Shown here: piece by piece, positions 4,140 to 53,456 of the stretch | Numbering within the stretch: the stretch's first letter is position 1 | How the letters are laid out: every line of letters begins with the position of its first letter | NCBI GenBank assembly: GCA_964639615.1 | Contig: CAZXHH010000001.1 | Span: 68,092 to 132,091 of the forward strand | Reading direction: 5' to 3' | Source of the DNA: Candidatus Woesearchaeota archaeon | GTDB taxonomy: Archaea > Nanobdellota > Nanobdellia > Pacearchaeales > GW2011-AR1 | DNA length: 64,000 nt | Program-made: the position numbers and the translations under genes | The notes under the pieces: model-generated | What the model was told of the DNA's origin: nothing | Database searches by the model: none | What the model saw: only the letters and a program-made list of their open reading frames with translations

Positions 4140-4193
4140 TACTTCTAGATATGTTTAAAAATGAAAGTTATCTTTGAAAAGTATTAATTATAT

Positions 4194-4269: not shown

Positions 4270-4289
4270 TTCTTAAAAGAGAAAACAAG

Positions 4290-24132: not shown

Positions 24133-24342
24133 CTAATCATCATACTCGGGGATTACTTTTTTATAAAAAATGCTTAAAATCCAACGAGTAATTACTCCAA
24201 AGACAATTATTCCTATAAAAAACATAATCCAACTCATTACATTATCCAAATCTGAATATAAAAGTTCTATACCTAAACCTATTATTCCTCCGAATAATGC
24301 TCCAATTAATAAATAAATCATTTCTTTAGTTGGTTTCTTCAT
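24133..24342 (-). CDS. Small two-TM membrane protein
   Basis: 69 aa. Confidence 0.3.
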   Translation of the reverse strand: MKKPTKEMIYLLIGALFGGIIGLGIELLYSDLDNVMSWIMFFIGIIVFGVITRWILSIFYKKVIPEYDD

Positions 24343-25547
24343 TTTATTTCTAAATAAGATTTAATCTCTAAATTACAAATTTCATCTGTGCAACCAAAAC
24401 TAGCATATTTGTAAGGATTAAAAGTTTTTTCAGAATTTGCAGATATCTTAAATGTTTCTACCTCGGTTATATCTACTCCAAGAATAGAAGAATATAGTCG
24501 ATACATCACATTAACAGAAATATCCTTATCTTGATTATTTGCTATCCTAATCCTTGAGCCATTATTTTGAACGATTAAAAGATTATTCTGGTAGTCTTGA
24601 ACTCCTCTTTGGTATTGTTCTAAAGATATCTCTTTTAATTCATTGCTTTTATAATCAAACCACCTACCTGCTCCACAATCACAATCAATAATCTTAACTC
24701 TTATATCAATAGAATAAGAATTTAAAATCCAGGGAGAACAAACCTTCGTGCAAAAGTCTCTAACTATTGGAGAACTATCTCCTTGTGCATACCAATCTAT
24801 TCCATTAAAACTTTGGATAATCGTCTCTAGATTATTTTCTGAATTTTCTTCTTTTTTATTATCTGGATAAAATAGAATTATTCCAAGAATTATTAAAATA
24901 ATTCCAAGAATACCCCCAATTATCCTTCTCTTTTTTTTCTTTCTTCTCTCTGTATCTCTTCTTTCTTTTTCCTCTCTTCTCATTTGTTCTTCTTTAAACA
25001 ATCTTTTTCTTTTCTCTTCTTCTTTTCTTTCAATCTTTCTTTTTTCTTCTTGTAATTTTTCATATTTTTCTTTTTCTTCTTTTCTTTTTTCTTCTTGAAG
25101 AGATATTTTTCTTTCTTCAACTAATCTCTTTTCTTGCTTAGCTTTTGTTTCCCAATATAATTTTTCTCTTCTTTCTTTTGTTAGCGTGGCCTCTTGAAGA
25201 ATAATTTCTCTTTTCTCTGGAAAAGTTAGTTTCTTATTTCCTTCTGCTCTTTTGTTTATTAAAAAAATATCAATTTGTTTAGAATTTTCAAATTTCCTTT
25301 TTTTTCTAATTTGTTCCCCATGTATCCAATCATGCTCTTCTTTTGTGCAAATATAAAGATTTTTTATGGAATTATTGAATGTCTCCCCATCAATATGGTG
25401 AACAATATAAGCACCAAATGGTTTTTGATATTTGTCTCTGTCTTTATCATAGATATATTTTTTTGCTACTTCTCTACTTTGCAGATTTCCTTCTTCTGTA
25501 AGTATGTATTCATTGTTAGGATTATTTCTAAATCTCTCTAACGGCAT
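24339..25547 (-). CDS. HNH nuclease domain - K/E-rich single helix - TM - Cys-containing ectodomain protein
   Basis: YIVHHIDGETFNNSIKNLYICTKEEHDWIH (HNH motif); ~90-aa EEKRKEEKEK... charged segment; TM IIGGILGIILIILGIILF; C-terminal 190 aa with 6 Cys. Confidence 0.5.
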   Translation of the reverse strand: MPLERFRNNPNNEYILTEEGNLQSREVAKKYIYDKDRDKYQKPFGAYIVHHIDGETFNNSIKNLYICTKEEHDWIHGEQIRKKRKFENSKQIDIFLINKRAEGNKKLTFPEKREIILQEATLTKERREKLYWETKAKQEKRLVEERKISLQEEKRKEEKEKYEKLQEEKRKIERKEEEKRKRLFKEEQMRREEKERRDTERRKKKKRRIIGGILGIILIILGIILFYPDNKKEENSENNLETIIQSFNGIDWYAQGDSSPIVRDFCTKVCSPWILNSYSIDIRVKIIDCDCGAGRWFDYKSNELKEISLEQYQRGVQDYQNNLLIVQNNGSRIRIANNQDKDISVNVMYRLYSSILGVDITEVETFKISANSEKTFNPYKYASFGCTDEICNLEIKSYLEIK

Positions 25548-27829: not shown

Positions 27830-28615
27830 ATGAAAAAGAGAGAATATAAAATTATTCTGACAATTTTAATTCTTATATTTTTTACAATAAATTACAACAA
27901 TCTTGATAGCTTTGTAACAAAAAACTTTGATAATCAAGAAACAATTGTTGTTGAAAGAGTTATTGATGGGGATACGCTTGTTGATAGCGAAGGAATTCAT
28001 TACAGATTATTGGGAATTAATACTCCAGAAAAAGGAGAGCCTCTTTATTTAGATGCAAAAAAATTTCTTGAAGAAAAAACAATAAATCAAACAATAATTG
28101 TAGAAAAAACTAAAAAGGATAGATATGATAGAGAACTTGCATATTTTTATCTTGGAAAAGCAAATATTAATGAAGAAATTGTAAACAAAGGGTATGCAAA
28201 TTATTATTTTCCTGAAGGAAAGGATAGGTATTACTCAACTTTTTTGGATGCTTGGCTGAATTGCATAGATTCTAACATAAACTTGTGTGAAAAATCAGAA
28301 GATAAATGCTCTTCATGTATCCAATTAACAAAGTGGGATTTTGAAAACCAAGAGATTAGTTTTTACAATAAATGCTCTTTTGACTGTAATTTAAATGGTT
28401 GGACATTAAAAGACGAGGGAAGAAAAAAATTTGTTTTTGAAAACTATATATTAAAGGGCTTAAATTATGTTAATGTTATTGTTGAGAATAAAACTAATTC
28501 TGCAAATAATCTTTATTGGAAAAATGAAGAATATGTCTGGACCTCTTCAGGAGATAGTTTCTTTTTAAGAGATGGAGAAGGAAAGTTAGTGCTTTGGGGG
28601 ACTGAGAATTATTAA
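27830..28615 (+). CDS. Secreted staphylococcal-nuclease (SNase)-like nuclease with C-terminal lamin-tail-like domain
   Basis: Signal/TM N-terminus; VIDGDTLVDSEGIHYRLLGINTPE thermonuclease motif; C-terminal NGWTLKDEGRKKFVF LTD-like. Confidence 0.65.
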   Translation: MKKREYKIILTILILIFFTINYNNLDSFVTKNFDNQETIVVERVIDGDTLVDSEGIHYRLLGINTPEKGEPLYLDAKKFLEEKTINQTIIVEKTKKDRYDRELAYFYLGKANINEEIVNKGYANYYFPEGKDRYYSTFLDAWLNCIDSNINLCEKSEDKCSSCIQLTKWDFENQEISFYNKCSFDCNLNGWTLKDEGRKKFVFENYILKGLNYVNVIVENKTNSANNLYWKNEEYVWTSSGDSFFLRDGEGKLVLWGTENY

Positions 28616-28733: not shown

Positions 28734-29228
28734 TTACATCAATTCGCTACAATCTTCTGGAGGAATAATATAAATACTACCATATCCATTATCAACTATT
28801 GCTTTATTAACAAATAAATTATCTCCCCAATCGTTTACATAAACAAATCTCAATAATCTTCCGTAAGCATCTTTGTCTTTTAAAGAAGAATTAAAACTAA
28901 CTTCTTTGTATAAAATAAGTTCTCTAAGAAATGCTTTTGATTCTTCATAACCTTGTTCTTTTTTTTCTGGAGCATCTACACAGAGCAATCTAACTTTAAG
29001 CATTTTGTCTGTTGTTTCATCATAATATTCAAAAGTATCTCCATCAATTATTTTTACAACAGTATTATTATTTAGCTGTGATTTATTGTAAGCTTTTGGA
29101 AGAGAAGAAATAAATGCCACAATTAACAGAATAAACACAATAAAAACCATCCAATAAACTATCTTATCCCATTCTTTTTTAATTTTCAGCTCATCATTTG
29201 GAAATTGTGATTGATCCTCTTTTTCCAT
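28734..29228 (-). CDS. Membrane-anchored SNase-like nuclease
   Basis: N-terminal TM; VKIIDGDTFEYY...VRLLCVDAPEKKEQGY...YGRLLRFVYVND SNase motifs. Confidence 0.65.
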   Translation of the reverse strand: MEKEDQSQFPNDELKIKKEWDKIVYWMVFIVFILLIVAFISSLPKAYNKSQLNNNTVVKIIDGDTFEYYDETTDKMLKVRLLCVDAPEKKEQGYEESKAFLRELILYKEVSFNSSLKDKDAYGRLLRFVYVNDWGDNLFVNKAIVDNGYGSIYIIPPEDCSELM

Positions 29229-29353: not shown

Positions 29354-32300
29354 ATGGAGAAAAGGGAAAAGTGCTGGAAGTTATTTCTAATTAACATACT
29401 AATTTTAACACTAAGCTTTTCTTTTATTAGTGCTTCTACTTCACTAACAAGCATTAATGTTAATCCTTCAATTACAAATTCTAATCCAGTTCTAACTGTA
29501 ACGCTTAGTGAGAGTAATTCTTCATACCTAATTTCTGGTGCAGAATATTTTATTGATAGTGCTGGTGTAAGTGGAACAGGAAATAGTTTAACTGCTTCAG
29601 ATGGAGCATATGATGAACTAACTGAAGATACAAGTGCTAGTATAGATCTAACAGGTTTAAGTCAGGGCAGCCACACAGTTTATGCTCACGGATTAAATAA
29701 CAATTCTGAATGGGGTGCTTTTTCTACAGTCAGTTTTACAAAAGATACAATTATCCCTACACTAACCTCAATGCAGATTACTGGAGCATATGGTGCTACA
29801 AATAAAATTTCTCCTCAAAATGCAGATGGAAAGTATGATTCTGTTAGAATTATTATGAATTCAAGTGAATCTGTTGATTGGGGAAAAACATCAGTATTAA
29901 ATTCTACAGGACAGGAAATAAAATATTTCAATGGCCCTTCTGGTTATATTAATTCAAATATAGAAACTTGGGATGGAAAAAATAGTTCTGGAAATTATGT
30001 CCTTGATGGAGTTTACACAATTTATACAAATATAACAGACCAAGCAGGAAACTCAAATTTAATCTATGTGGGTTCAGTGATTATAGATAATACTGCTCCA
30101 ATTGGGACAATCACAAAAGGAACTCCTATAATAAGTAACAATGATTTAACACAAGAAATAACAATAAATTATAATGAAGTTATGGATACTTCTTATAGAC
30201 CACTGATTAACTTTACAAATAATATTGGAGAGATTAGAAGTACTGGAGGAAGTTGGAGTACAAATCAAATTTGGACAGAGAATTTCCTTGTTGAAGATGC
30301 AGATGAAGAAACAACAAACGTAATTATTTCTAGTTCATTAGCTAAAGACCTTGTTGAAAACTCAGAAGCTACTTCTATTTCAGCTTCTTTTTCTATTGAT
30401 ACAAAAGCTCCTGTTATCTCTAGTTTGCAAATTAATGCTTCAGATATAGAAATAAATAATGATAATGATGTAACAATTTCAGCAGACATTAGCGAAGGAA
30501 TGTCTACCCCAATAAATGTCTGGCTTGAAGGAAACTGGACTGGGACTTCTGCAAATAACACTTTAAGTTCTTCTTCAGGACATTATAGTTATACTATAAG
30601 CAAAACTCAACTTTCAAATCAGGAATATGTGGGATGGAGAATTTTTACAAGAGATTCTAGAGGAAATATTAGAAGTACAAGCATAAATGGTTTTTTAGTT
30701 AAAAATAGAGCTCCTTTATTTATTCCTTCTATAAATAATATGTCTTGGATTGAAGATGGAGGTTCAAAGACAATTAACTTATCTGATTATTTTTATGATT
30801 TAGATAAAGACATTCTTAATTATACTGCAACAGTTGTTTCTAACAGAGGACCAACATCAGATCCAAATCCTCTTGGGGGAATAACAGTTACAATAAACAA
30901 TGCAACAAAAATTGCAACAATTTCATCAACCTCAGATTGGAATGGTGATGGAACAATTATATTTTATGCTTGGGACTTTGTTGGAGGATACAATAGGAGC
31001 AATACAGTTTATGTAACAGTTATTGCTGATGATAATGAAGCTCCAACACTAACAAGTTCTTTGAGCCCAGTAAACTTCAGTGAAGATACAACTTTCTCTT
31101 TGCAATTATTCTGTGATCCAAATGACCCTGCACAAGTTTGCTTAAATTATAGATATGATGCATCATATATTGATTATAATTCAAATCTAACTGTATCTGT
31201 AAATCCTTCAACAGGACAGGTTACATTAAGTCCAAAATTAAATTGGAATGGGTTAACTTATGTTAAATTTCTTGCTGATGATAATGGAGTTCCTTTAGAA
31301 ACAGGAAGTTTAGTTGTTAGAGTAAATGTAACTCCTGTAAATGATAATCCTATATTAGACGCTCCTGATATAAGCATGATAGAAAATTCTGCTGCACCTT
31401 CTCCAATTAATTTGCTTTCTTATACAACGGATGTAGATAACCAATTAACTTCTATGGTTTATAATTTGGTTAGTCAATCAAATACAAGTTTAATTAATTG
31501 TAGCTTAAATGTAAATACAATAAACTGTGGAGCACCTGCATATAACAAATATGGAATTTCAGATTTAATAGTTAGTGTAATAGATGGAAGTGGTGGCAGT
31601 GATAGTCAAAAGATTACTATTGAAGTAAAAAAGAATCATGCTCCAACAATAAGATCATATTTTCCTGTTGAAAATCCTTTGATAAGAACTGGAAGGCCCC
31701 AGACTTTTGTACTTGTTGCTCAAGATGTTGATAATTTAACAGCTTTAAATTATGTCTGGAAAGTAGATGGAACAATTGTTCAGAATGGAATAGATAATAA
31801 TTATATATTTACACCTTCAGCTGAAAGCAATTATATTGTTAGTGCTGAAGTAAGTGACGAAGTTCCAAACACAGTAACAAAAAGCTGGACAGTTAAGGCA
31901 ACTACTTATCCAATTACAACAGAGTTTAATGGTGATGAAACAACAAATCTTTCAAATCCTTCTTTAGATTTAACAAATGTAAGTTTAGTTTTAGAAAATT
32001 CATACGGTAAAATTGAATTTTTATCTCCTGTTGATTTAACAAAGGCTTGGGACTTGGACAATAATGTTGAAATTTCTTCAAACGGATTAGTTGCTGTTAA
32101 TACTCAGTTATATCCTGCCTTAAATAAACCTGCAAGAATTACACTTTATGGATTGAGCTATAGTTCTTTACCTAAAGTTTATTATTCTTCGAGCTTCACA
32201 ACTTCTCCATTGACTGTTCAACAAGAATGTTCTTCACCTAGATGTAATTTACTCAATTATACTGCATTCCCTACATCTGCTGGAGAGGTTACATTTACTG

Positions 32301-33376
32301 TCTCTCAATTCAGTTCATATGCTGTTAAAGGAAGTGGAATTAATTATGATATTAACAAACTTGATTTAGACAAATGTGAAAACGGAGTCCAAGGAAATCT
32401 AACTGTTGAAATAAAAAATCCTGATGAGGATGAATCTTTTGGACCTGGAGCAGAAATTAAGATTAAATTAAAAGTATCAAACGATAATTCTTTTGATGAT
32501 AAATTCATAGCCAAAGGAATTTTATATAATTTAGATGAAGAAGATGAAGAGGAAACAGAAGAAAGTGATTCTGTTGAAATAGAAACAGAAGATTCAGAAA
32601 CAATTGAATTCTCATTAATTGTCCCAGAAGATATGGATGAAGAAGATGATTATGTTCTATTTGTTAAAGTCTATCAAAAAGGAGAAGAGGAAAATCAATG
32701 CAATTATCAAATAATTGATTTATCTCTTGAAAGAGAAGAACACAAAGTTATAATTAATGATATTGTTTCTGATTTAGAAATTAATACTGGGGAAAAATTA
32801 AACCTTGATATTGATTTAGAAAATATTGGAAGTTCAGACGAAGATGAAGCATATATCAAAATAACAAATAGCGAATTAAAATTAAATGAAAAAACAGATA
32901 CATTTGAAATTGAGAAATATGGTGACGATAATGAATTGACAATAAGCCATAGCATTTTAATTCCACAAAACGCAGCAGGAAAAGAATACACTTTAAGAGT
33001 AGAGGTATTTTATGAAGATGGAAGCACTTTCCAAAATTATATAATAAATGTAAATAATAAATCAATTATAAGTTATGTACCTACAGAAAACTTAATTTAC
33101 TTATCTTCTTCGCAGTCTTCAGGATCTGGAAGTTCTAGTCCTAAAACAATTACTGCATCAAAAACAACTATAACAGGAAAAATAACTGAAAAAGCAGAAG
33201 TTGAAGAAGAGGCTGCTCTTAATGTAAATCTAGATACAGAAGATAAAATAGCTTCTGAATTTAGTACAAATAAGAGTTCAGTAAAAGTAAATTATAATTA
33301 TCTTCCGATAGTGCTTGGTATCGGTATATTGATTTTTGTTTTTGCAATAGTATATCTTTTAATAAAGAAAAGATAA
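29354..33376 (+). CDS. Giant (1340 aa) surface protein: signal peptide, Ig/cadherin-like repeats, acidic segment, Ser/Thr linker, C-terminal TM anchor (S-layer/adhesin candidate)
   Basis: N-terminal signal peptide; PVNDNPILDAPD cadherin-like motif; dozens of N-x-S/T sequons; DEEDEEETEESD acidic run; SSSQSSGSGSSSPKT linker; LPIVLGIGILIFVFAIVYLLIKKR anchor. Confidence 0.6.
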   Translation: MEKREKCWKLFLINILILTLSFSFISASTSLTSINVNPSITNSNPVLTVTLSESNSSYLISGAEYFIDSAGVSGTGNSLTASDGAYDELTEDTSASIDLTGLSQGSHTVYAHGLNNNSEWGAFSTVSFTKDTIIPTLTSMQITGAYGATNKISPQNADGKYDSVRIIMNSSESVDWGKTSVLNSTGQEIKYFNGPSGYINSNIETWDGKNSSGNYVLDGVYTIYTNITDQAGNSNLIYVGSVIIDNTAPIGTITKGTPIISNNDLTQEITINYNEVMDTSYRPLINFTNNIGEIRSTGGSWSTNQIWTENFLVEDADEETTNVIISSSLAKDLVENSEATSISASFSIDTKAPVISSLQINASDIEINNDNDVTISADISEGMSTPINVWLEGNWTGTSANNTLSSSSGHYSYTISKTQLSNQEYVGWRIFTRDSRGNIRSTSINGFLVKNRAPLFIPSINNMSWIEDGGSKTINLSDYFYDLDKDILNYTATVVSNRGPTSDPNPLGGITVTINNATKIATISSTSDWNGDGTIIFYAWDFVGGYNRSNTVYVTVIADDNEAPTLTSSLSPVNFSEDTTFSLQLFCDPNDPAQVCLNYRYDASYIDYNSNLTVSVNPSTGQVTLSPKLNWNGLTYVKFLADDNGVPLETGSLVVRVNVTPVNDNPILDAPDISMIENSAAPSPINLLSYTTDVDNQLTSMVYNLVSQSNTSLINCSLNVNTINCGAPAYNKYGISDLIVSVIDGSGGSDSQKITIEVKKNHAPTIRSYFPVENPLIRTGRPQTFVLVAQDVDNLTALNYVWKVDGTIVQNGIDNNYIFTPSAESNYIVSAEVSDEVPNTVTKSWTVKATTYPITTEFNGDETTNLSNPSLDLTNVSLVLENSYGKIEFLSPVDLTKAWDLDNNVEISSNGLVAVNTQLYPALNKPARITLYGLSYSSLPKVYYSSSFTTSPLTVQQECSSPRCNLLNYTAFPTSAGEVTFTVSQFSSYAVKGSGINYDINKLDLDKCENGVQGNLTVEIKNPDEDESFGPGAEIKIKLKVSNDNSFDDKFIAKGILYNLDEEDEEETEESDSVEIETEDSETIEFSLIVPEDMDEEDDYVLFVKVYQKGEEENQCNYQIIDLSLEREEHKVIINDIVSDLEINTGEKLNLDIDLENIGSSDEDEAYIKITNSELKLNEKTDTFEIEKYGDDNELTISHSILIPQNAAGKEYTLRVEVFYEDGSTFQNYIINVNNKSIISYVPTENLIYLSSSQSSGSGSSSPKTITASKTTITGKITEKAEVEEEAALNVNLDTEDKIASEFSTNKSSVKVNYNYLPIVLGIGILIFVFAIVYLLIKKR

Positions 33377-33662: not shown

Positions 33663-34031
33663 ATGAAAAATAAAAAACCAAAATTTTGGGGAAAACTTGC
33701 AAGCATCGATTTAGTTGGATGCAATGACAATGTTAGTAATCCCCGGGAGATTCGGCGGTTTTGCATAGAAATCTGTAAAAAAATTCACATGAAAAGATTT
33801 GGTCCAACTCATTTGAAAAGATTTGGTGTTGGAAAATTAGAAGGATATTCTTTTATGCAGTTTATTGAAACTTCTTCTATAACTGCACATTTTGAAGAAC
33901 AACAAAATCCAAAAAAAGCATTTATTGATATTTTCAGCTGTAAAGATTTTGATGAAAAAGACGCAGCTAACTTTTGTAAAAAATTCTTTGGAGCTAACAA
34001 GGCCAAATTAAGAGTGTTGATAAGAGAATAA
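33663..34031 (+). CDS. speH: S-adenosylmethionine decarboxylase proenzyme (pyruvoyl-dependent)
   Basis: LVGCN..., FIETSSITAHFEE (self-cleavage Ser context), FIDIFSCKDFD match archaeal/bacterial SpeH. Confidence 0.65.
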   Translation: MKNKKPKFWGKLASIDLVGCNDNVSNPREIRRFCIEICKKIHMKRFGPTHLKRFGVGKLEGYSFMQFIETSSITAHFEEQQNPKKAFIDIFSCKDFDEKDAANFCKKFFGANKAKLRVLIRE

Positions 34032-34086
34032 AATAAAAATTATTCTAAACCAAAAGAGATTTAAACAACAATTCTATTAAATTTTT

Positions 34087-34345
34087 GTAGACTAAGTCGG
34101 CGGGTTAGCCCTCCGCTGCTTGCAAATGGGCTTCATGGCAGACTACGAGTGGGGCGTGATAAGTGCGTTGAGGAATCTTTTTTCCAACGTTGACGCTTTG
34201 TCCGTTTTGATTTCGTAGATGCGAAATGGGTCAGGCCTTGATCGGAGCAGCCCTAAACACCTATTGGAATGCTTAGCGGGTTGCAGAGCCGAGAAGGAAG
34301 AAAGGCTAGTTTCTTAATGTTCTTAGTAGCTAACCACTTGTCTAC
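34087..34345 (+). ncRNA. Candidate SRP RNA (7S RNA)
   Basis: ~260-nt GC-rich (~50%) ORF-free island in a ~30% GC genome; GGTCAGGCC...CGGAGCAGCC resembles the SRP RNA domain IV consensus GUCAGGUCCGGAAGGAAGCAGC; terminal GTAGAC/GTCTAC can pair. Confidence 0.5.
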
Positions 34346-34429
34346 ACTATTAATTTTTTATAAATATACTTCCAAAAACATCTATTTTACGACGATAATA
34401 CTTATAAATAATAAATAAAATATATTTTT

Positions 34430-35026
34430 ATGGAAAGTACTTATCTTATAAAACATCCTTCTCATGCACTTGTTGTTGAAGCAATTCAGACTCTCCCAGG
34501 AGAAATTGAAAGCATAAATTTGGAATTATTTGCTGATGGAGTTCAATTTCCAGAATATCCTGAAAATGAAGCAACAACACAGGGGTATTTGAATACATGC
34601 AAATATCAGAACATAATCCCATTTTCTAGCAAAAGAATAAGATGGAGCTTTAATGTCGAAGAACATATTCCTAAAAATACTGAAGCTATGCAGATGTATT
34701 TTTCTGGAGGAAGAACAAATAGGATATCTTTTGAAATATCTCAGGATTGGCAGTTTAAAGAAATTGATAAATTCAAAGAAATATTATTTCCTTCTCTTTT
34801 AAAAAATAACTACAAAATTTCATCTGGAGAAATTATTATGTCTGGCCATAAAACAGGTTCGCATCAAACTGAAGGATATGCTCCCGACTTAGCATTAAAG
34901 ATAAATTATGGTGAAAAAGGATTGGGGATTCTTGTAGACGATAATTATAGAACTGCTAAAGAAGAAAAACCAAAATATGAAAAGTGGTTTGAAGATTTAA
35001 AGACAAAATACAAAATAAGAGATTAA
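34430..35026 (+). CDS. Hypothetical protein
   Basis: 198 aa ORF, no recognisable motif. Confidence 0.35.
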   Translation: MESTYLIKHPSHALVVEAIQTLPGEIESINLELFADGVQFPEYPENEATTQGYLNTCKYQNIIPFSSKRIRWSFNVEEHIPKNTEAMQMYFSGGRTNRISFEISQDWQFKEIDKFKEILFPSLLKNNYKISSGEIIMSGHKTGSHQTEGYAPDLALKINYGEKGLGILVDDNYRTAKEEKPKYEKWFEDLKTKYKIRD

Positions 35027-35027
35027 A

Positions 35028-35363
35028 ATGGGAAGAAACAGATTGTATCAACAAGGACTTCTAGGAATAATCGAGAAACTTAAGGATAAAGAAGTTAAGT
35101 TTCATGTTAATGAATCTTGCGTCGGAGAAGTTTGTTTAATAAATAATTGTAACAGAGATGCAACACATAAGGTAGAAGAAGTTATTATAGAAGGAGACCC
35201 AAATCCATTAAGACATCCGTTAACAAATTACATATGCTGCAATCATTATAAGAAAGTTTTTGGCGCACTTGCTAAATTGCAATGTGAAAATCAAAAGCAC
35301 GATTTATATTATAAAGCAATAAAAAAAGATTATGAAACATTCTCTGATACAAGGGAAGAATAA
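35028..35363 (+). CDS. Hypothetical Cys-rich protein (7 Cys), translationally coupled to upstream gene
   Basis: CVGEVCLINNCN...YICCNHY...CEN; start 2 nt after upstream stop. Confidence 0.35.
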   Translation: MGRNRLYQQGLLGIIEKLKDKEVKFHVNESCVGEVCLINNCNRDATHKVEEVIIEGDPNPLRHPLTNYICCNHYKKVFGALAKLQCENQKHDLYYKAIKKDYETFSDTREE

Positions 35364-36553: not shown

Positions 36554-37021
36554 ATGATAAAAAGAGGGGATAAAAAAGCACAGTTTTACTTTATGGCTAC
36601 AATAATAATAGTAGCTTTGCTAATAAGCATTGTTGTTACAATTAATTATTCTTTAAGAACCAAATCTTATGAAGCAGAAGAAATTGCAAAAGATTTAACA
36701 ATTGAAACAGAAAAAGTTTTGGATTATGATACAATTCATTCAACAAATGAATTAGAAGATTTTGCAAAAGTTTATTCTAGATATGTTGGACAAGATAAAG
36801 AGATTTATTTTATTTTTGTAGATAATGATGGAAGTTCTGAAGCTTTTAGATATGTTGGAGAAAATAAAGTGGATTTTACCTCTAGTTTAGCAGTTGAAGG
36901 AAACGAAATTCAATTTATTATGGATAATAATACCTACAAATTTAATCTTAAGGAAGGAAAGAATTTGTATTTTCTTTTAATTTATGAATCTAAAGGGGAA
37001 AAATATGTATTTTCAGGATAA
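36554..37021 (+). CDS. Pilin-like protein (class III signal peptide)
   Basis: MIKRGDKKAQFYFMATIIIVALLISIVV N-terminus; first gene of pilus cluster. Confidence 0.5.
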   Translation: MIKRGDKKAQFYFMATIIIVALLISIVVTINYSLRTKSYEAEEIAKDLTIETEKVLDYDTIHSTNELEDFAKVYSRYVGQDKEIYFIFVDNDGSSEAFRYVGENKVDFTSSLAVEGNEIQFIMDNNTYKFNLKEGKNLYFLLIYESKGEKYVFSG

Positions 37022-38492
37022 AAGAAAAAGAGGAATAAGTATTGTAGTGGGGTATGTTTTATTAGTAACCTTTGCAATTGTAATCGGAGTAATAGTTTAT
37101 CAATGGATGAAAAGCTATGTCCCTCAGGAAGAAATTAATTGTCCTGATGGTTCCTCAATTTTTTTAGAAGATTATTCATATAATTGCGATACAGAAATTT
37201 TAACTTTGTATTTGAAGAATAATGGAAGATTCAGTCTTGGAGGATATTTTATTTATGTTACTAATAAAGAAGAAGCAAAATTAGCCACAATAGATATTTC
37301 AAAAAATAATACAGACCCTAATGCGATATTAGTTCCTACAGGAATTAAATTCGGAGGAATTGGTTCTTTAAATTATCTTGAAGCTGGACAGGAAGAAGTA
37401 GATTATTTTAATTTAACAGGCATAAATCAAATTTATTCTATTGAAATTTTACCTATAAGATGGCAGGAAGAAAAGAATAAACAAATTTTAGCAACTTGTA
37501 AAACAGTAAAAGTAAGAGAAGAAGTTAAATGTAAGGGAGTTGCTGGCTCATCTTCGCAATGTGTTTTCCCTGTTATAAGTCCTTGTACAGGATTAGAATG
37601 TGGAACTATTGCAAATGGAAGTTGTGGAGACATAATATGTGCACCAAATAATTGTGATGCGGGAGAACATTGTGGTGGAGGAATTTGTGTATTAGATACT
37701 TGTACTGGTGCTCCTGTTCCAAATGACAAAGATTCTCTTTGCGGAATTTATGAATGTGGATTTGTTGCAAATGGAAGCTGTGGAAATGTTTTCTGTGGAG
37801 ATAATAATGGTGCTTGCATTGCTCCTGAAACATGTGATGCTGCAACACATACATGTGAATGTGCTACAGAAAGTGATGCAACATTCTGTACAAGATTAGG
37901 AGCAGAGTGTGGAACTTTAACAGGAACAGATAATTGTGGTGTATTAAGATTAAATGTAAATTGCGGAGGATGTGATGCAGATGAAACTTGTAATAATAAT
38001 ATATGTGAGTGTGTTCCTGAAACTAATGTTCAATTCTGTACAAGATTGGGAGTGCAATGTGGAAGTTTATCTGGAACAGATAATTGTGGAAATTCTAGAA
38101 CAGTAAGCGAATGTGGGCCTTGCTCAGGAGTACAAGTTTGTAATAGTGGTATTTGTGTAACTCCTTCTACATGTAATGGAACTTGGGTAAAGTCTCCTCC
38201 AGAAACTGTTGAATGCGATGGAACTCCATTACCTCCTCATTGTCTTGCTGGATGTAGCTGTGAAGCAGGATATGATTCAAGCGGTGGTGGAGGATGTTGG
38301 ATTTCTGGAACAGGTGCAAGTTGCCAAGCTCATTGTATTTCATTAGGATACACTCAAATTCCTGTTGGAAGTTGTAGACAAAATCAAGCTCAATGTAATA
38401 GCTTCTGTCCTGGAATTATTCCTGGAGTTCTTGAAACAGGAGGAAATCAGTGGTGTACAGCTCCTACAATAAATTGTTGTTGTTGTCAATAA
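37005..38492 (+). CDS. Pilin-like protein with ~330-aa cysteine-rich tandem-repeat C-terminal domain
   Basis: MYFQDKRKRGISIVVGYVLLVTFAIVIGVIVY class III SP; >60 Cys; repeated modules CGxxANGSCGxxxC and FCTRLGxxCGxLxGTDNCG (150-nt DNA repeat 37884/38034); ends NCCCCQ. Confidence 0.55.
   Translation: MYFQDKRKRGISIVVGYVLLVTFAIVIGVIVYQWMKSYVPQEEINCPDGSSIFLEDYSYNCDTEILTLYLKNNGRFSLGGYFIYVTNKEEAKLATIDISKNNTDPNAILVPTGIKFGGIGSLNYLEAGQEEVDYFNLTGINQIYSIEILPIRWQEEKNKQILATCKTVKVREEVKCKGVAGSSSQCVFPVISPCTGLECGTIANGSCGDIICAPNNCDAGEHCGGGICVLDTCTGAPVPNDKDSLCGIYECGFVANGSCGNVFCGDNNGACIAPETCDAATHTCECATESDATFCTRLGAECGTLTGTDNCGVLRLNVNCGGCDADETCNNNICECVPETNVQFCTRLGVQCGSLSGTDNCGNSRTVSECGPCSGVQVCNSGICVTPSTCNGTWVKSPPETVECDGTPLPPHCLAGCSCEAGYDSSGGGGCWISGTGASCQAHCISLGYTQIPVGSCRQNQAQCNSFCPGIIPGVLETGGNQWCTAPTINCCCCQ
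37884..38160 (+). repeat. In-frame ~150-nt tandem coding repeat (FCTRLG...CGxxTGTDNCG modules)
   Basis: ttctgtacaagattaggagcagagtgtggaactttaacaggaacagataattgtgg (37884) vs ttctgtacaagattgggagtgcaatgtggaagtttatctggaacagataattgtgg (38034). Confidence 0.7.
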
Positions 38493-38497
38493 TTAAA

Positions 38498-39019
38498 ATG
38501 AAATCAAAAAAAGCTATTAGTGCAATTGTAGAATATGTTTTGCTTGTTACATTTGCTCTCGTAACTGGAGTTATTGTTTATTCTTTCATGAAAACATATG
38601 TTCCGCAAGAAGAATTAAACTGTCCTGATGGTTCCTCTCTTCAAATAAGCGAATATAATTACGATTGTGCAACAAACATGCTTTCAATTAAATTCACAAA
38701 TTCCGGAAGATTTAGTTTAGGCGGATATTTTATTTATACTACAAATAAACCAAATCAAGAATTAGCAACAATAGATTTAACAAAAAATAATACAGATATT
38801 AATTCGAGATTATCTCCAAATGGAATAAAATTTGGATTAATAGGAGTGGATAATTCTCTTGAGCCAAATCAAGAAGAAACAGATACATATAATTTAACAG
38901 GAATTTCTCAAGCATATTCAATACAAATTGTACCTATAAGATGGCAGGAAAAAAAGAACACTCAAATATTAGTCAGCTGTAAAAACGAAAAAATCAAAAA
39001 AACAATAGAATGTGCTTAA
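38498..39019 (+). CDS. Pilin-like paralog of the N-terminal domain of 37005..38492 (no Cys-rich extension)
   Basis: MKSKKAISAIVEYVLLVTFALVTGVIVY...YVPQEELNCPDGSS...GRFSLGGYFIY...LATID..KNNTD...PIRWQEKKN collinear with upstream gene residues 1-170. Confidence 0.55.
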   Translation: MKSKKAISAIVEYVLLVTFALVTGVIVYSFMKTYVPQEELNCPDGSSLQISEYNYDCATNMLSIKFTNSGRFSLGGYFIYTTNKPNQELATIDLTKNNTDINSRLSPNGIKFGLIGVDNSLEPNQEETDTYNLTGISQAYSIQIVPIRWQEKKNTQILVSCKNEKIKKTIECA

Positions 39020-40092: not shown

Positions 40093-40641
40093 ATGAAAAA
40101 AGGTGATTTGAAGAAATCTTTAGTTGGTTGCAAAGGGCAAGTTTGGATTGAAACTGTAATTTACCTTCTTATAGCACTGGTTATGATTAGTTTAGTATTA
40201 GCGTTTGTAAAACCTAAAATTGAAGAACTTCGAGATCAAGCAATAATTGACCAATCAATTGAAATACTAAAAAATATTGACAATTCTATACTTACAATGG
40301 GTGAAGCTGGAAACAAAAGAGTTCTTGAAATTGGAATTAAAAAAGGTACGCTTACAATTGATTCTATAAATGATAATATAATTTTTGAAATTGACAGCAG
40401 ATACTTATATACTGAAGTAGGTCAAACAGTTAATTTAGGAAATATTCAAGCAACTACAGAAGATAAAGGGAAGAACAATCTTGTAACATTAAAAAGAGAT
40501 TTTAGTGAAGAATATAATTTAACTTACAAGGGAGAAGAGAATGCTAAAACCTTTCCCAAATCATCAACTCCTTACACAATCTCTTTGACTAATAAGGGAG
40601 AGTTTTCAAATAAAATAAAGATTGATTTTGATATCCAATAA
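40093..40641 (+). CDS. Pilin-like protein (class III signal peptide)
   Basis: MKKGDLKKSLVGCKGQVWIETVIYLLIALVMISLVLAFV. Confidence 0.5.
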   Translation: MKKGDLKKSLVGCKGQVWIETVIYLLIALVMISLVLAFVKPKIEELRDQAIIDQSIEILKNIDNSILTMGEAGNKRVLEIGIKKGTLTIDSINDNIIFEIDSRYLYTEVGQTVNLGNIQATTEDKGKNNLVTLKRDFSEEYNLTYKGEENAKTFPKSSTPYTISLTNKGEFSNKIKIDFDIQ

Positions 40642-40642
40642 A

Positions 40643-42199
40643 ATGCCAGTAAAAAGTACAGCAATAAAAGACTATCCAAGACCAAAAATAAACTTTAATC
40701 CAGTTGTTCCTCCATTAAAGAGAATTAAAGATAAAACTAAAGTTGATGTAAGATATTGCTTAATCTCTCCTTATACTTTCGTGCATATTCATTGGGATCC
40801 TAAGGTTTATGAAATTGTATATGATATTGAAGAGCCAATTTTAACAGATGAAGAAGAAAAACAGAAAAATGAAATTATGCTTGCAATGAATAATATCATT
40901 GATTTTGAAACAGTTGTTGAAAAAGAAAGAGAAAAACTTCTTGAATATATTGATAAAAGATTCAAAATACTTGCAATAGAACTTGGAATGGAATTATCTT
41001 ATGAAACTTACAAAAAAATATTTTATTACTTATGTAGAGATTTTATGGGTTTTAATGAAGCAGAACCTCTTTTAAGAGATTATTTTGTGGAAGATATTGA
41101 ATGTAATGGTGCAAATTCTCCAATATATATTGTTCACAGAATTTATAGAAATATGAAAACTAGCTTAGTATTTAATGATATGGATAGACTTCAAAGTTTT
41201 GTTGAAAAACTTGCACAAAGATGTGGAAAATATATTTCGTATGCGAAGCCAATTTTAGATGGAAGTCTTCCAGATGGTTCCAGAGTTAATGCTACATATA
41301 CGAAGGATATTACAAGTAAAGGTCCAACATTCACAATCAGAAAGTTCACAAAAACTCCGTGGACTCCTCCTCAATTAATTGCTTTTGGAACATTAAGTCC
41401 TGAAATTCTTGCATATTTGTGGTTATTAGTTCAGTATAAAATGAATATCTTAATTACAGGTGGAACCTCTGCAGGAAAAACAACTCTTCTTAATGCTATT
41501 GCTTTCTTTATCCCTCCTGAATCAAGAGTGGTTTCAATTGAAGATACACGTGAATTAAATCTTCCAAGAGACAACTGGCTACCTAGTGTTGCGAGAAGTT
41601 CTACAGGTGTTGGTACAACAGGAGAAATTAGCTTGTTTGATTTATTGAGAAGTTCATTCAGACAAAACCCAGATTATGTAATTGTGGGAGAAGTTAGAGG
41701 TGCAGAGGCATCAGTATTATTCCAGGGAATGGCTTCAGGACACTCATCAATCAGTACAATTCACGCAGATTCTGTTGATACATTAATTAAAAGATTAGAA
41801 ACTCCTCCAATTGAACTTTCACCTACGCTTCTTAATGTTCTTGATTGTGTATGTATTATGACTCATGCAATAGTAAATAAAGAAGAAACCAGAAAATTAA
41901 AAGAAGTTGTTGAAATAATGAACGTAACTCTTGACGGTATTGCTCTTACAAATACTCCATTTATGTGGAATGCGCTTGAAAATGAATTCTATTCTAAGAA
42001 AAATAGTAAAATTTACGAAAAAATTAGAAAAAGATATGGTATTAAGGTTGAAGACTTAGAAATTGAATTTAGAAAAAGAGTTCAATTATTATATAATTTA
42101 TATCAAAGAAAAATATTCAAATTTGAAGAAGTTCAGGATATAGTAAATGAATACTACAAAAAACCTCAGGAAATTTTGAAAAAATACGGGGTAGAATAA
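40643..42199 (+). CDS. Type IV pilus / archaellum-family assembly ATPase (PilB/FlaI/TadA superfamily)
   Basis: Walker A GGTSAGKTT, Asp box, Walker B DYVIVGEVRG, His box HSSISTIHA; 518 aa. Confidence 0.85.
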   Translation: MPVKSTAIKDYPRPKINFNPVVPPLKRIKDKTKVDVRYCLISPYTFVHIHWDPKVYEIVYDIEEPILTDEEEKQKNEIMLAMNNIIDFETVVEKEREKLLEYIDKRFKILAIELGMELSYETYKKIFYYLCRDFMGFNEAEPLLRDYFVEDIECNGANSPIYIVHRIYRNMKTSLVFNDMDRLQSFVEKLAQRCGKYISYAKPILDGSLPDGSRVNATYTKDITSKGPTFTIRKFTKTPWTPPQLIAFGTLSPEILAYLWLLVQYKMNILITGGTSAGKTTLLNAIAFFIPPESRVVSIEDTRELNLPRDNWLPSVARSSTGVGTTGEISLFDLLRSSFRQNPDYVIVGEVRGAEASVLFQGMASGHSSISTIHADSVDTLIKRLETPPIELSPTLLNVLDCVCIMTHAIVNKEETRKLKEVVEIMNVTLDGIALTNTPFMWNALENEFYSKKNSKIYEKIRKRYGIKVEDLEIEFRKRVQLLYNLYQRKIFKFEEVQDIVNEYYKKPQEILKKYGVE

Positions 42200-42236
42200 T
42201 CAAAATATTTAATAAGACAAAATTACTTTTTCTAAG

Positions 42237-42419
42237 ATGGATAAAGAGGTTGAAAAAGAAGAGGGTCCAGCTAGTTTTTTGAAACAACTTGTAGCAACTT
42301 TAGAAGATGCAAGTTTGAAATTAGAACAAGCTTACAAAAACGACAAAGCTGAACAAGTTAGTGCAATAAAGCAATTTATTCTAAGAATACAGACTAAAAT
42401 TGACGAGGAATTAAAATAA
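42237..42419 (+). CDS. Small helical protein between ATPase and platform genes
   Basis: 60 aa ORF, stop overlaps start of next gene. Confidence 0.3.
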   Translation: MDKEVEKEEGPASFLKQLVATLEDASLKLEQAYKNDKAEQVSAIKQFILRIQTKIDEELK

Positions 42420-43757
42420 ATGGCAAAAAAAGATATGAGAATAATAGCTGAATTAAAGGAAGTCATTTCAAAAGAGAAAAAGATAGTTTCTGAACTTACT
42501 TCTATTCAAAAATATTATAATGAAGCGAGCGAAGGGGAAAAAGGTATGCTAGATTCTCAAATTAAATCCATGAAGGATAATTTGAAACAAACAAATTCTC
42601 AAATTCCAGTTATTTTAGATAAAATACTTACTGCAAAAAAATTAAATCCGGATTGGGAATCTACAGCAGAAAGAGCAGAAGACAAGTGGGCAGATAAAAA
42701 TAAACTTACAAATAAAAATGCTGCTGCAAAACCAAAACAACAAATTCTTCCTTATACTGAAAGAGGATATTCTCTAAGGGAATTGAAACCAACTGTTCTA
42801 GAAAAACAAACAATTAAAAGAATGAAAGAAAAAGACATCAAAAAAGAAGAAATAAAAGAACAGCAAGCTAATGTTTATGTTAAATTTGCTAACAAACTAT
42901 TCTCTAACTACTCTGAGCAGATGGTTAAAGATAAAACATTTGAATTAGAGAGGGATTTAATAAAAGCAAATCTCCCATATACTGAAAGAAGTTATATCTC
43001 AATGATTTTTCTTACTACACTAATAGCAATCGTTGCTAGTATAATTATTGCTCTTTTTTTCCTATTTTTCAATTTAAGTGCATCAATGCCAATAATATCT
43101 AAAGCAACAGATATTGCTCCAAGAATTTGGAAAGTTCTTCTTATTGTTTTATTCGCCCCAATTTTAACTTTTATTTTTATGTATACTTATCCTGGATTGG
43201 AAAGAGGAGCATCAGAATCAAGAATAAATGAAGAATTGCCTTTTGCAACAATTCACATGTCTGCTATTTCTGGTTCTATGATTGACCCTAGCAAGATATT
43301 TGATATTATAATTACAACTCATGAATATCCTTATCTTGAAAAGGAATTCAAAAAACTCCTTAATGAAATAAATCTCTATGGATATGATTTAGTAAGTGCT
43401 TTAAGAACAAGTTCATTTAATTCTCCAAGTAAAAAACTTGCGGAACTATTTAATGGTCTTGCAACAACAATAAATTCTGGAGGAGATTTGCCAGCTTTCT
43501 TTGATAAAAGATCACAGACATTATTATTTGAAAACAGACTTGAACAAGAAAAAAAGACAAAGGCCGCAGAAACTTTTATGGATATGTACATTAGCTTAGT
43601 TGTTGCTGCACCAATGATTTTAATGATTTTACTTATGATGATGAAGATTAGTGGACTTGGAATTTCAATGAGTACTCAAATGATCACAGTTGTTATGGTA
43701 ATGGCTGTTGCAGGTATAAATGCAGTCTTCCTTACCTTCCTTCAATTAAAAAGATAA
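42420..43757 (+). CDS. TadC/FlaJ-like membrane platform protein (T2SSF domain)
   Basis: Long cytoplasmic coiled N-region then TM helices and LATTINSGGDLPAFFDKRSQTL T2SSF-like motif. Confidence 0.6.
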   Translation: MAKKDMRIIAELKEVISKEKKIVSELTSIQKYYNEASEGEKGMLDSQIKSMKDNLKQTNSQIPVILDKILTAKKLNPDWESTAERAEDKWADKNKLTNKNAAAKPKQQILPYTERGYSLRELKPTVLEKQTIKRMKEKDIKKEEIKEQQANVYVKFANKLFSNYSEQMVKDKTFELERDLIKANLPYTERSYISMIFLTTLIAIVASIIIALFFLFFNLSASMPIISKATDIAPRIWKVLLIVLFAPILTFIFMYTYPGLERGASESRINEELPFATIHMSAISGSMIDPSKIFDIIITTHEYPYLEKEFKKLLNEINLYGYDLVSALRTSSFNSPSKKLAELFNGLATTINSGGDLPAFFDKRSQTLLFENRLEQEKKTKAAETFMDMYISLVVAAPMILMILLMMMKISGLGISMSTQMITVVMVMAVAGINAVFLTFLQLKR

Positions 43758-43823
43758 AATGAACAATAAACATTGTATATGTCCTCATAAATTCCGGATA
43801 CAAAATCCAGGAGATTTTGCATA

Positions 43824-53380: not shown

Positions 53381-53456
53381 TTTTCATAAAAGGTTGATCT
53401 ATTCTTAAAGTTTGCCAAAAGATATCTATAAATACAGATACTTTATTATCTGTATC

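What the first reader, a model, noticed from the sequence alone, without database searches (positions are those of the whole stretch)
29354..33376. 1340-aa cadherin-like, heavily sequon-decorated surface protein with acidic insert and C-terminal TM anchor
The protein has a signal peptide, multiple beta-sandwich repeats with a cadherin-type PVNDNP motif, dozens of N-x-S/T sequons, and a DEEDEEETEESD acidic block. A Ser/Thr-rich stalk and a single C-terminal TM helix with a basic tail complete it. It is a candidate S-layer protein or major adhesin, adjacent to the two nuclease genes and near the N-glycosylation genes.
Basis: partly seen in the sequence, partly recalled or inferred. Interest (0 to 1): 0.55.

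Follow-up and report, generated by a model that had tools for sequence, protein, structure and literature searches.

The report
Archaeal adhesin with nucleoporin-type autocleavage domain
A large surface protein of a tiny DPANN archaeon has, between its sticky outer part and its membrane anchor, a domain related to the self-cutting domain of the eukaryotic nuclear-pore protein Nup98, which suggests a built-in breakable joint and gives that domain a large set of prokaryotic relatives.

Summary
The 1340-aa ORF (29354-33376, +) is real. It has a signal peptide, about 820 aa of beta-sandwich domains, a Ser/Thr-rich linker, one C-terminal TM helix and an IKKR tail. The 27 sequons equal the composition expectation (26.4 +/- 4.3). 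The acidic block is a conserved part of a stalk domain, not an insert.

Residues ~851-986 are homologous to the Nup98-96 autopeptidase S59 domain (Pfam PF04096). The domain alone scores 29.1 bits against a cutoff of 28.4, and 47 of 49 relatives match. The top 22 PDB sequence hits are all Nup98/Nup116/Nup145. hhalign against human Nup98 gives 95.5% probability. Nup98's HF|S cleavage site aligns with Q985-F986|S987. Across 82 relatives P1 is Phe in 79 and P1' is Ser/Thr in 80.

S59, a two-domain stalk and the TM anchor form a cassette that carries variable adhesion domains in many DPANN archaeal proteins. The stalk is shared with NCBIfam's putative S-layer family NF033506, but the protein is not a member.

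Best reading: a membrane-anchored adhesin that cleaves itself at F986|S987, leaving a ~104-kDa ectodomain held non-covalently on a ~40-kDa anchor. Cleavage is inferred, and the fold test was inconclusive.

The parts
29354..33376 (+). Whole gene, 1340 aa plus stop codon
   Evidence: ORF list and translation. A syntenic ortholog with 61% identity lies in Nanoarchaeota MAG contig JBBTAN010000107.
29354..29440 (+). Signal peptide (aa 1-~29): MEKREKCWK, hydrophobic core, ISAS
   Evidence: Kyte-Doolittle windows above 1.6 at aa 7-31; sequence. 61 of 82 family members have an equivalent N-terminal hydrophobic segment. No dedicated signal-peptide predictor was available.
29441..31903 (+). Variable ectodomain (aa ~30-850): about eight beta-sandwich domains. 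These include an FlgD-Ig-like domain (aa 157-223), three tandem-95/cadherin-like repeats (aa ~456-765, PVNDNP at aa 661-666 = nt 31334-31351) and a PKD-like domain (aa 777-834).
   Evidence: Weak Pfam/NCBIfam hits, all below the curated cutoffs. Relatives have Big_9, Cadherin_4/5 and PKD domains above cutoff. Domain boundaries were read from the sequence by eye and were not modelled.
31904..32311 (+). Nup98-type (peptidase S59-like) autoproteolytic domain, aa ~851-986
   Evidence: PF04096: 27.0 bits in the full protein and 29.1 bits for the domain alone, against cutoff 28.4; 47 of 49 relatives match. The family profile against PDB sequences gives 22 top hits that are all Nup98/Nup116/Nup145 APDs, best E 7.5e-7. 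hhalign against human Nup98 APD: 95.5% probability, E 1.5e-8. AF2 model of aa 848-1003: pLDDT 95.2, pTM 0.89.
32228..32245 (+). Conserved Cys pair C959...C964 in a loop of the S59-like domain. It is absent from Nup98. A disulfide is my inference.
   Evidence: Invariant columns C112 and C117 in the 49-sequence alignment; 99% and 90% conserved among 82 members.
32309..32314 (+). Predicted scissile bond F986|S987, in the context V-S-Q-F|S-S-Y-A-V
   Evidence: Aligned to Nup98 H-F|S-K-Y by HMMER and hhalign. F-S-S is invariant in close relatives. Among 82 members P1 is F in 79, P1' is S/T in 80 and P3' is F/Y in 82. In the AF2 model the site lies in the turn between strands aa 974-983 and 988-993.
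32366..33064 (+). Membrane-proximal stalk (aa ~1005-1237): two tandem CARDB/MG-like beta-sandwich domains, homologous to the core of NF033506 'putative S-layer protein'
   Evidence: NF033506 E 1.4e-24, 86.8 bits, profile positions 105-454. AF2 pLDDT mostly 65-96 over this part, with its first ~25 residues lower. Foldseek matches to tandem beta-sandwiches (transglutaminase barrels, RbmA) at E ~1e-10 but TM 0.2-0.3. 4049 cluster representatives match the S59+stalk module profile, and many of them match only the stalk part.
32534..32569 (+). Acidic block DEEDEEETEESD (aa 1061-1072), a conserved element of stalk domain 1
   Evidence: The pattern [GA][IY]L[YF]N[VIL]DE[DE] was conserved enough to serve as a genome search key.
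33065..33286 (+). Low-complexity linker (aa 1238-1311), Ser/Thr-rich in aa 1245-1276
   Evidence: 32% S+T overall and 47% in the core. Poorly conserved among relatives.
33287..33373 (+). C-terminal TM helix (aa ~1312-1336) and basic tail IKKR
   Evidence: Hydropathy up to 3.16. 76 of 82 family members end in a TM helix and 68 of 82 have at least two K/R in the last six residues. The 'FWIIGD' signature of NF033506 members is absent.

Best explanation
The gene encodes a type-I membrane-anchored surface adhesin of a DPANN (Nanoarchaeota/Woesearchaeota-type) archaeon. It is exported by the Sec pathway and held in the membrane by its C-terminal helix.

A Nup98-type (S59-like) domain lies between the variable beta-sandwich ectodomain and a conserved two-domain stalk. 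As the domain folds, the hydroxyl of Ser987 attacks the Phe986 carbonyl (N-O acyl shift followed by ester hydrolysis) and cuts the chain between F986 and S987.

The new N-terminal strand (SSYAVKG) stays hydrogen-bonded in the sheet of the S59 domain. The ~104-kDa adhesive fragment therefore remains non-covalently docked on the ~40-kDa stalk-plus-anchor fragment. This creates a joint that can be pulled apart or shed without tearing the membrane, for example when the episymbiont detaches from a host cell or a surface.

The stalk is homologous to the core of the lineage's putative S-layer protein and probably places the joint at or within the S-layer.

Shown here: topology features, homology to S59, conservation of the F-S/T site, the cassette architecture and its DPANN distribution. 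Inferred: that cleavage occurs, that the fragments stay associated, the force-release role, and the interaction with the S-layer.
For: - Homology to S59: PF04096 is the best Pfam hit and is above cutoff for the isolated domain. 47 of 49 relatives match, and none match GPS/GAIN or ZU5.
- Reciprocal check: the family profile retrieves only Nup98/Nup116/Nup145 APDs as its top 22 PDB sequences, over the full domain. hhalign gives 95.5% probability.
- The cleavage site aligns exactly with Nup98 HF|S.
- Site conservation among 82 diverse members: P1 F 79, P1' S/T 80, P3' F/Y 82. A conserved hydroxyl nucleophile is not required for a purely structural hairpin.
- Gln at P2 is tolerated in Nup98. H862Q and H862A only slightly affect autocleavage, and CARD8/NLRP1 cleave at SF|S (PMC3210808).
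- The confident AF2 model puts the site in a beta-turn between two paired strands.
- The architecture SP - variable adhesion domains - autoproteolytic domain - anchor is uniform. The C-terminal fragment is 241-478 aa (median 340) and 76 of 82 have a TM anchor, while the N-terminal fragment ranges from 200 to 2034 aa. The cargo is made of adhesion-type domains.
- The same logic has been shown experimentally for bacterial MAIN/GAIN domains, which cut at HF|S (bioRxiv 10.64898/2026.05.12.724683).
- Organism labels are all DPANN apart from one bin labelled Paceibacterota.
Against: - No experiment shows cleavage.
- The P2 His of Nup98 is Gln here, and is only 35 of 82 His across the family.
- The full-length protein scores just below Pfam's cutoff (27.0 against 28.4).
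- Yeast Nup116 and Nup100 show that an S59 fold can serve as a non-cleaving binding domain (established knowledge).
- The force-release role and the S-layer docking are analogies, not observations.
Confidence: 0.6

Rival explanations
1. Uncleaved adhesin. The S59-like domain is a purely structural or binding module, as the APD fold is in yeast Nup116/Nup100. The F-S-S-[FY] motif is kept for folding of the last hairpin, and the protein works as one covalent chain.
For: The P2 His is replaced by Gln in the window protein and by Gly in its closest relatives P0001, P0016, P0017 and P0018. Only 35 of 82 family members have His. No fold-level confirmation was obtained.
Against: P1' Ser/Thr is kept in 80 of 82 members, and S-to-T is the main substitution, which is the pattern expected for a nucleophile. 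Nup98 H862Q and H862A still cleave, and CARD8/NLRP1 cleave at SF|S without a P2 His.
Confidence: 0.22
2. It is the cell's S-layer subunit: a lattice-forming, N-glycosylated envelope protein.
For: Partial homology (E 1.4e-24) to NCBIfam NF033506 'putative S-layer protein'. Acidic, N/S/T-rich composition, with signal peptide and C-terminal anchor.
Against: The score is below the family cutoff (86.8 against 110) and covers only the two-domain core. True members are ~650 aa, lack S59 and share a 'FWIIGD' C-terminal signature that is absent here. The N-terminal part is hypervariable among relatives, which is typical of adhesins and not of lattice subunits. Sequons are not enriched. The 'S-layer' label of NF033506 is itself only putative.
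Confidence: 0.06
3. The domain is really a member of the recently described MAIN (microbial GAIN_B-like) family, and the Pfam S59 match reflects a shared superfamily. It would then be a member of an already described kind of microbial autoproteolytic tether.
For: Same architecture and the same H-F|S-type site as B. subtilis YfkN MAIN. The top Foldseek hit, though not significant, is a GAIN-containing CELSR1 chain (E 0.06, TM 0.27).
Against: No GPS/GAIN/ZU5 Pfam hit in any of 49 domain segments. No GAIN or ZU5 chain among PDB sequence hits up to E = 10, whereas 22 S59 chains appear. The MAIN paper's supplementary tables, as far as they are held, contain no PF04096 or Nucleoporin2 entry and no Nanoarchaeota or Woesearchaeota.
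Confidence: 0.1

Closest known systems
Nup98-Nup96 / Nup145 autoproteolytic domain (MEROPS S59, Pfam PF04096)
   Same: Statistically supported sequence homology over the whole ~140-aa domain. The scissile x-F|S-x-[YF] site sits at the same aligned position. The predicted site lies in a turn followed by a strand that pairs with the domain, as the Nup96 N-terminus does with Nup98 (the latter from established knowledge).
   Different: Extracellular and archaeal, not a nucleoporin: there are no FG repeats and no Nup96 partner. P2 is Gln, and H/G/S across the family. There is an extra conserved Cys-x4-Cys loop. The central region differs enough that Foldseek did not retrieve Nup98 structures.
MAIN domains (microbial GAIN_B-like; B. 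subtilis YfkN), Brogan & Rudner, bioRxiv 10.64898/2026.05.12.724683
   Same: It works like one: signal peptide, then adhesion or enzyme cargo, then an autoproteolytic beta-sandwich, then a surface anchor. MAIN cleavage at H-F|S in a beta-turn, with the fragments remaining associated, was shown experimentally. A shear-release role is proposed.
   Different: A different sequence family by every test run here. The anchor is a TM helix following a two-domain stalk, not sortase, SLH or cell-wall binding. The lineage (DPANN MAGs) is not in their RefSeq-based survey, as far as the supplements held show.
ZU5/FIIND autoprocessing domains (PIDD, CARD8, NLRP1)
   Same: [H/S]-F|S site with a buried P1 Phe acting as a strain anchor. 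P2 His is dispensable (PMC3210808).
   Different: These are cytoplasmic eukaryotic signalling proteins. No ZU5 sequence match was found.
NCBIfam NF033506 PACE-CTERM-PROT 'putative S-layer protein' of Pacearchaeota-type archaea
   Same: The two-domain stalk (aa ~1005-1237) is homologous to the family's core at profile positions ~212-457.
   Different: Below cutoff, and lacks the family's N-terminal domains, its third Ig domain and its 'FWIIGD' C-terminal signature. NF033506 members lack the S59 domain.
SEA/SEAL domains and C. difficile CwpV
   Same: Enzyme-independent N-O acyl-shift autoproteolysis of surface proteins whose products stay associated.
   Different: Unrelated folds and motifs (G|SVVV for SEA; Thr-413-mediated cleavage in CwpV). 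No sequence similarity was detected.

Membership tests
Peptidase S59 / Pfam PF04096 (Nup98-96 autopeptidase) | Significant match to the family profile at or above the curated cutoff | tested here: met
   The domain alone scores 29.1 bits (cutoff 28.4), E 1.3e-6, covering profile positions 28-147 of 148, and 47 of 49 relatives match with best E 7.4e-13. The full-length protein is just under the cutoff at 27.0 bits. In the reciprocal search the top 22 PDB sequence hits are all S59 domains. hhalign gives 95.5% probability.
Peptidase S59 / Pfam PF04096 (Nup98-96 autopeptidase) | H-F|S catalytic motif at the C-terminal end of the domain (Ser nucleophile, buried Phe, His at P2) | tested here: inconclusive
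   F986 and S987 are present and aligned to Nup98 F863/S864. P1 F is found in 79 of 82 and P1' S/T in 80 of 82 family members. P2 is Gln, not His. Nup98 H862Q still cleaves, so the substitution does not exclude activity.
Peptidase S59 / Pfam PF04096 (Nup98-96 autopeptidase) | Nup98 APD three-dimensional fold | tested here: inconclusive
Peptidase S59 / Pfam PF04096 (Nup98-96 autopeptidase) | Demonstrated intramolecular autoproteolysis | not testable with these tools
   Requires protein expression with an S987A control, or proteomics.
MAIN / GAIN_B autoproteolytic domains | GAIN_B-like fold or GPS-type sequence match | tested here: not met
   No GPS/GAIN Pfam hit in 49 segments. No GAIN chain among PDB sequence hits at E <= 10. 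The only structural hint is a non-significant CELSR1 GAIN hit (E 0.06, TM 0.27).
MAIN / GAIN_B autoproteolytic domains | Architecture: signal peptide - adhesion/enzymatic domains - autoproteolytic domain - surface anchor | tested here: met
   definition taken.
NCBIfam NF033506 PACE-CTERM-PROT (putative S-layer protein) | Whole-protein score at or above the curated cutoff (110 bits), with near full-length coverage | tested here: not met
   86.8 bits, profile positions 105-454 of 627. True members score 207-264 bits over positions ~2-620.
NCBIfam NF033506 PACE-CTERM-PROT (putative S-layer protein) | Conserved C-terminal TM signature (FWIIGD...) | tested here: not met
   The window C-terminus is ...NYNYLPIVLGIGILIFVFAIVYLLIKKR. 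Most of the ~40 members listed carry xFWI[IL]GD[IV]VL or a close variant.
Bacterial cadherin-like / tandem-95 repeat domains (PF17803, PF17892, NF012211) | Profile match at or above the curated cutoff | tested here: not met
   Cadherin_4 17.9 against 25.1, Cadherin_5 14.4 against 26.5, and tandem-95 46.8 against 90. The motif xVNDNP is present once. Relatives pass the cutoffs, so the similarity is probably real but divergent.
N-glycosylated archaeal S-layer glycoprotein | Sequon enrichment beyond composition | tested here: not met
   27 observed against 26.4 +/- 4.3 expected.

The most novel reading that the evidence does not exclude
The Nup98/Nup145 autopeptidase (S59) domain, regarded as a eukaryotic nucleoporin invention, has a large and diversified family of homologs in DPANN archaeal cell-surface proteins. 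There it works as a third, independent class of self-cleaving tether (beside SEA/SEAL and GAIN/MAIN), joining exchangeable adhesins to a conserved S-layer-related stalk and anchor. This would give the nucleoporin domain a prokaryotic extracellular ancestry and make both its origin and a role in DPANN host attachment and detachment directly testable.
Probability: 0.45. Interest if true: 0.78.

Novelty: new variant of a known kind. Interest (0 to 1): 0.62.

Why it matters
There are three reasons.

1. Autoproteolytic, non-covalently held joints in surface proteins have only recently been recognised in microbes (SEAL and MAIN domains). An S59-type version in DPANN archaea would extend the principle to a different domain family and to organisms whose lifestyle depends on attaching to and releasing from host cells.

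2. A 2005 survey found prokaryotic homologs only for WD-repeat nucleoporins (PMC1257468). None of the papers retrieved for this Pfam family, or for Nup98 together with DPANN, concerns prokaryotes. A large archaeal family homologous to the Nup98 autopeptidase domain therefore bears on where nuclear-pore parts came from.

3. On the practical side, these proteins are deposited as 'hypothetical' or 'PKD domain-containing'. The S59-stalk-TM cassette is a usable marker for finding the adhesin repertoires of DPANN genomes.

Tried and rejected
- **Sequon enrichment:** rejected by a shuffle test.
- **Membership in the NF033506 S-layer family:** rejected on score, coverage and the missing C-terminal signature.
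- **GAIN/MAIN or ZU5 identity by sequence:** no support.
- **Word-indexed homolog searches:** the C-terminal module found only two fragments, and the domain profile found nothing. The exhaustive profile search was what exposed the family.
- **Other look-ups:** The search for related loci with the 49-sequence alignment failed for lack of a conserved stretch. An exact look-up of the window protein found no record.
- **Functional link to the adjacent nucleases:** only the SNase-LTD gene is syntenic in the closest relative. The second nuclease is specific to the window. I treat the adjacency as shared locus ancestry, not as a system.
- **Other copies in the window:** no second S59 or stalk-type gene.
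- **Stalk fold search:** only generic tandem beta-sandwich matches.


Full report
**1. Observation**

The ORF at 29354-33376 (+) is real: ATG start, 1340 codons. The window is ~30% G+C throughout. The protein is rich in S (12.0%), N (9.6%), T (9.2%) and I (9.0%).

Hydropathy shows only two strongly hydrophobic segments. One is N-terminal (windows starting at aa 7-13). The other is C-terminal (aa ~1312-1336) and is followed by IKKR.

PVNDNP occurs once, at aa 661-666. DEEDEEETEESD is at aa 1061-1072. A linker with 47% S+T spans aa 1245-1276. The two upstream genes are both SNase-family nucleases, and one also has a lamin-tail domain.

Two parts of the description do not hold:
- The 27 N-x-S/T sequons equal what 2000 composition-preserving shuffles give (26.4 +/- 4.3).
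- The acidic block is not an insert. It lies in one of the best-conserved stretches of the family.

**2. What the domains are**

Pfam gave only sub-threshold hits for the N-terminal 850 residues: FlgD_ig, Cadherin_4/5 and PKD_3. NCBIfam added a sub-threshold tandem-95 repeat.

The best Pfam hit of the whole protein was unexpected: PF04096, the Nup98-96 autopeptidase S59, at aa 879-990. It covers profile positions 29-147 of 148 at 27.0 bits, against a cutoff of 28.4. NCBIfam also gave a clear but partial match (E 1.4e-24, 86.8 bits, cutoff 110) of aa 903-1222 to NF033506 'PACE-CTERM-PROT, putative S-layer protein'.

**3. Testing the S59 lead**

- *Close relatives.* These (P0001-P0004, P0016, P0017) show an invariant F-S-S followed by G-S-G at the end of the domain. 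The residue before Phe is H, G or, in the window protein, Q.
- *Family size.* An exhaustive profile search with the C-terminal module (aa 860-1237) found 4049 cluster representatives at E <= 1e-3, of which 472 are at E <= 1e-30.
Among them P1 is Phe in 79, P1' is Ser (70) or Thr (10), and P3' is Phe or Tyr in all 82. P2 is His in 35, Gly in 25 and Ser in 15.
- *Pfam on domain segments.* 49 domain-only segments were scanned individually. 47 match PF04096 (best E 7.4e-13), and the window's own segment scores 29.1 bits, above the cutoff. None matches GPS/GAIN or ZU5.
- *Reciprocal check.* A profile of these 49 segments, searched against all PDB sequences, returns Nup98, Nup116 and Nup145 autoproteolytic domains as its top 22 hits (best E 7.5e-7, full-domain alignment). 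'vFevehF|Ssfk' is aligned to human 'vFKVSHF|SKYG'.
- *hhalign.* Against the human Nup98 APD sequence printed, it gives 95.5% probability and E 1.5e-8 over 109 columns, with the same site registration.

The homology to S59 is therefore well supported at the sequence level.

**4. Structure**

With 7 sequences AF2 could not fold the S59 part (pLDDT below 50), but it modelled the two downstream beta-sandwiches with moderate to high confidence.

With the 49-sequence alignment, the model of aa 848-1003 is confident (pLDDT 95.2, pTM 0.89). It places S984-Q985-F986-S987 in the turn between strands aa 974-983 and aa 988-993. That geometry lets the fragments stay hydrogen-bonded after cleavage.

The stalk model matches generic tandem beta-sandwiches.

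**5. Is Gln at P2 compatible with cleavage?**

PMC3210808, citing Hodel et al. 2002, states three things:
- Nup98 H862Q and H862A only slightly affect autocleavage.
- Replacing the P1 Phe with His abolishes it.
- CARD8 and NLRP1 cleave at S-F|S.

The window protein's Q-F|S thus equals a tested, active Nup98 variant. This is evidence by analogy, not a test of this protein.

**6. Architecture and distribution**

Across the 82 S59-bearing members:

| Feature | Result |
|---|---|
| Predicted C-terminal fragment | 241-478 aa, median 340 |
| C-terminal TM helix | 76 of 82 |
| Basic tail | 68 of 82 |
| N-terminal fragment | 200-2034 aa |

The cargo includes Big_9, Cadherin_4/5, PKD, He_PIG, LTD and beta-helix domains. 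S59, stalk and TM thus form a conserved cassette that carries exchangeable adhesion modules.

The ~650-aa hits are full NF033506 members. They have no S59 domain and share a 'FWIIGD' C-terminal TM signature that the window protein lacks.

All organism labels I could obtain are DPANN (Nanoarchaeota, Woesearchaeota, Pacearchaeota), apart from one bin labelled Paceibacterota. Depositors call these proteins 'hypothetical' or 'PKD domain-containing'.

**7. Context**

The window is an ordinary DPANN chromosomal segment. It holds aminoacyl-tRNA synthetases, Kae1/TsaD, RtcB, TrmB, a type-IV-pilus-like ATPase with platform and pilin-like genes, cation transporters and a dockerin protein.

The closest relative's locus (L001) keeps the order PRPP synthase, SNase-LTD, surface protein, tRNA synthetase. 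It lacks the second nuclease and genes 33663-35363. I see no evidence of a functional unit with the nucleases. The window has no second S59 or stalk gene.

**8. Mechanism proposed**

1. Sec export and signal-peptide removal.
2. Retention in the membrane by the C-terminal helix.
3. Folding of the S59-like domain strains the F986-S987 bond.
4. The Ser987 hydroxyl attacks (N-O acyl shift) and the ester is hydrolysed.
5. The ~104-kDa ectodomain (aa ~30-986) stays docked on the ~40-kDa fragment (aa 987-1340) through the retained beta-strand (for sizes).
6. The joint can separate under load or be shed.

The stalk's homology to the putative S-layer protein suggests that it sits in or on the S-layer.

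Steps 1 and 2 follow from sequence features. Steps 3 and 4 are inferred from homology and site conservation. Steps 5 and 6 rest on the AF2 hairpin and on analogy with Nup98-Nup96 and with MAIN/GAIN and SEA/SEAL domains.

**9. Comparison with what is known**

The protein works like a MAIN-domain surface protein (Brogan & Rudner 2026 preprint). By every sequence test, however, its domain belongs to the S59 family and not to GAIN/GPS or ZU5. As far as the MAIN paper's supplements are held, they contain no PF04096 entry and no DPANN taxa.

No paper in the searchable library links this Pfam family or Nup98 to prokaryotes or DPANN. A 2005 survey found no prokaryotic homolog of Nup98. Precomputed Pfam tables already tag some relatives with PF04096, so the match exists in databases but appears undiscussed. 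I cannot exclude a description in literature outside the library.

**10. Verdict**

The real point of interest is an S59-type autoproteolytic joint in a DPANN adhesin cassette. I classify it as a new variant of a known kind (self-cleaving surface tethers). Confidence is about 0.6 that the protein actually cleaves and works as proposed.

Noticed in passing
window 27830-28615 (+) and 28734-29228 (-): Two SNase-family nucleases, each with an N-terminal hydrophobic segment (signal or anchor). The first also carries a lamin-tail domain (LTD). They are probably extracellular or membrane-bound nucleases. Only the SNase-LTD gene is syntenic in the closest relative (L001). LTD also occurs as cargo on S59-cassette proteins (P0074, P0140).
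   Followed up: partly
window 36984-38492, 38450-39019 and 40622-44693 (+): A type-IV-pilus/archaellum-like cluster: a T2SSE ATPase (40622-42199) and two T2SSF platform proteins (42420-43757, 43824-44693). Upstream are two proteins with pilin-type N-termini (KRGISIVVGYVLLVTFAIV..., KKAISAIVEYVLLVTFALV...). Both pilin-like proteins align to the same L001 gene region, which suggests a local duplication.
   Followed up: partly
window 32228-32245 (aa C959...C964): A nearly invariant Cys-x(2-4)-Cys pair lies inside the archaeal S59-like domain and is absent from Nup98. It may be an extracellular disulfide near the cleavage site, reminiscent of the disulfides of the GPS motif in GAIN domains.
   Followed up: partly
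L002 3089-4663 and L004 7573-9153: In two related MAGs a ~525-aa protein containing only the stalk-type domains is encoded immediately downstream of the S59-cassette gene. It could be a partner or an S-layer-related paralog. There is no equivalent in the window.
   Followed up: partly
L012 3142-7002 (DAOTCN010000001.1, labelled Candidatus Paceibacterota bacterium): A 1287-aa ORF (stop to stop) with the stalk-type domains (profile positions 144-371) sits on a 389-kb contig binned as a CPR bacterium. It is either a mis-binned DPANN contig or a transfer between co-occurring ultra-small lineages.
   Followed up: no
window 60656-62398 (+): A 580-aa protein with a dockerin type I domain (aa 331-388) and a lipoprotein-like N-terminus (…FLASALIPACTSC…). 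It is another candidate surface protein.
   Followed up: no
window 46265-47215 (+) and 47210-49801 (-): A Na+/Ca2+ exchanger and a P-type cation ATPase lie next to each other. They may be relevant to Ca2+ handling, given the acidic surface proteins. This is speculative.
   Followed up: no
window 24339-25547 (-): A 402-aa protein with an N-terminal HNH_3 endonuclease motif (aa 44-71) followed by a region with weak EssA/Imm17-like hits. Its function is unclear.
   Followed up: no
window 53412-55310 (+): A 632-aa polytopic membrane protein with PTPS_related/EpsG-like (GT-C-type) matches. No STT3/AglB was found among the ORFs scanned.
   Followed up: partly
window 4192-4272 (+): ARAGORN calls tRNA-Met as 81 nt with the anticodon at position 38, whereas Rfam matches 4194-4269. 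It may have an atypical or extended structure.
   Followed up: no
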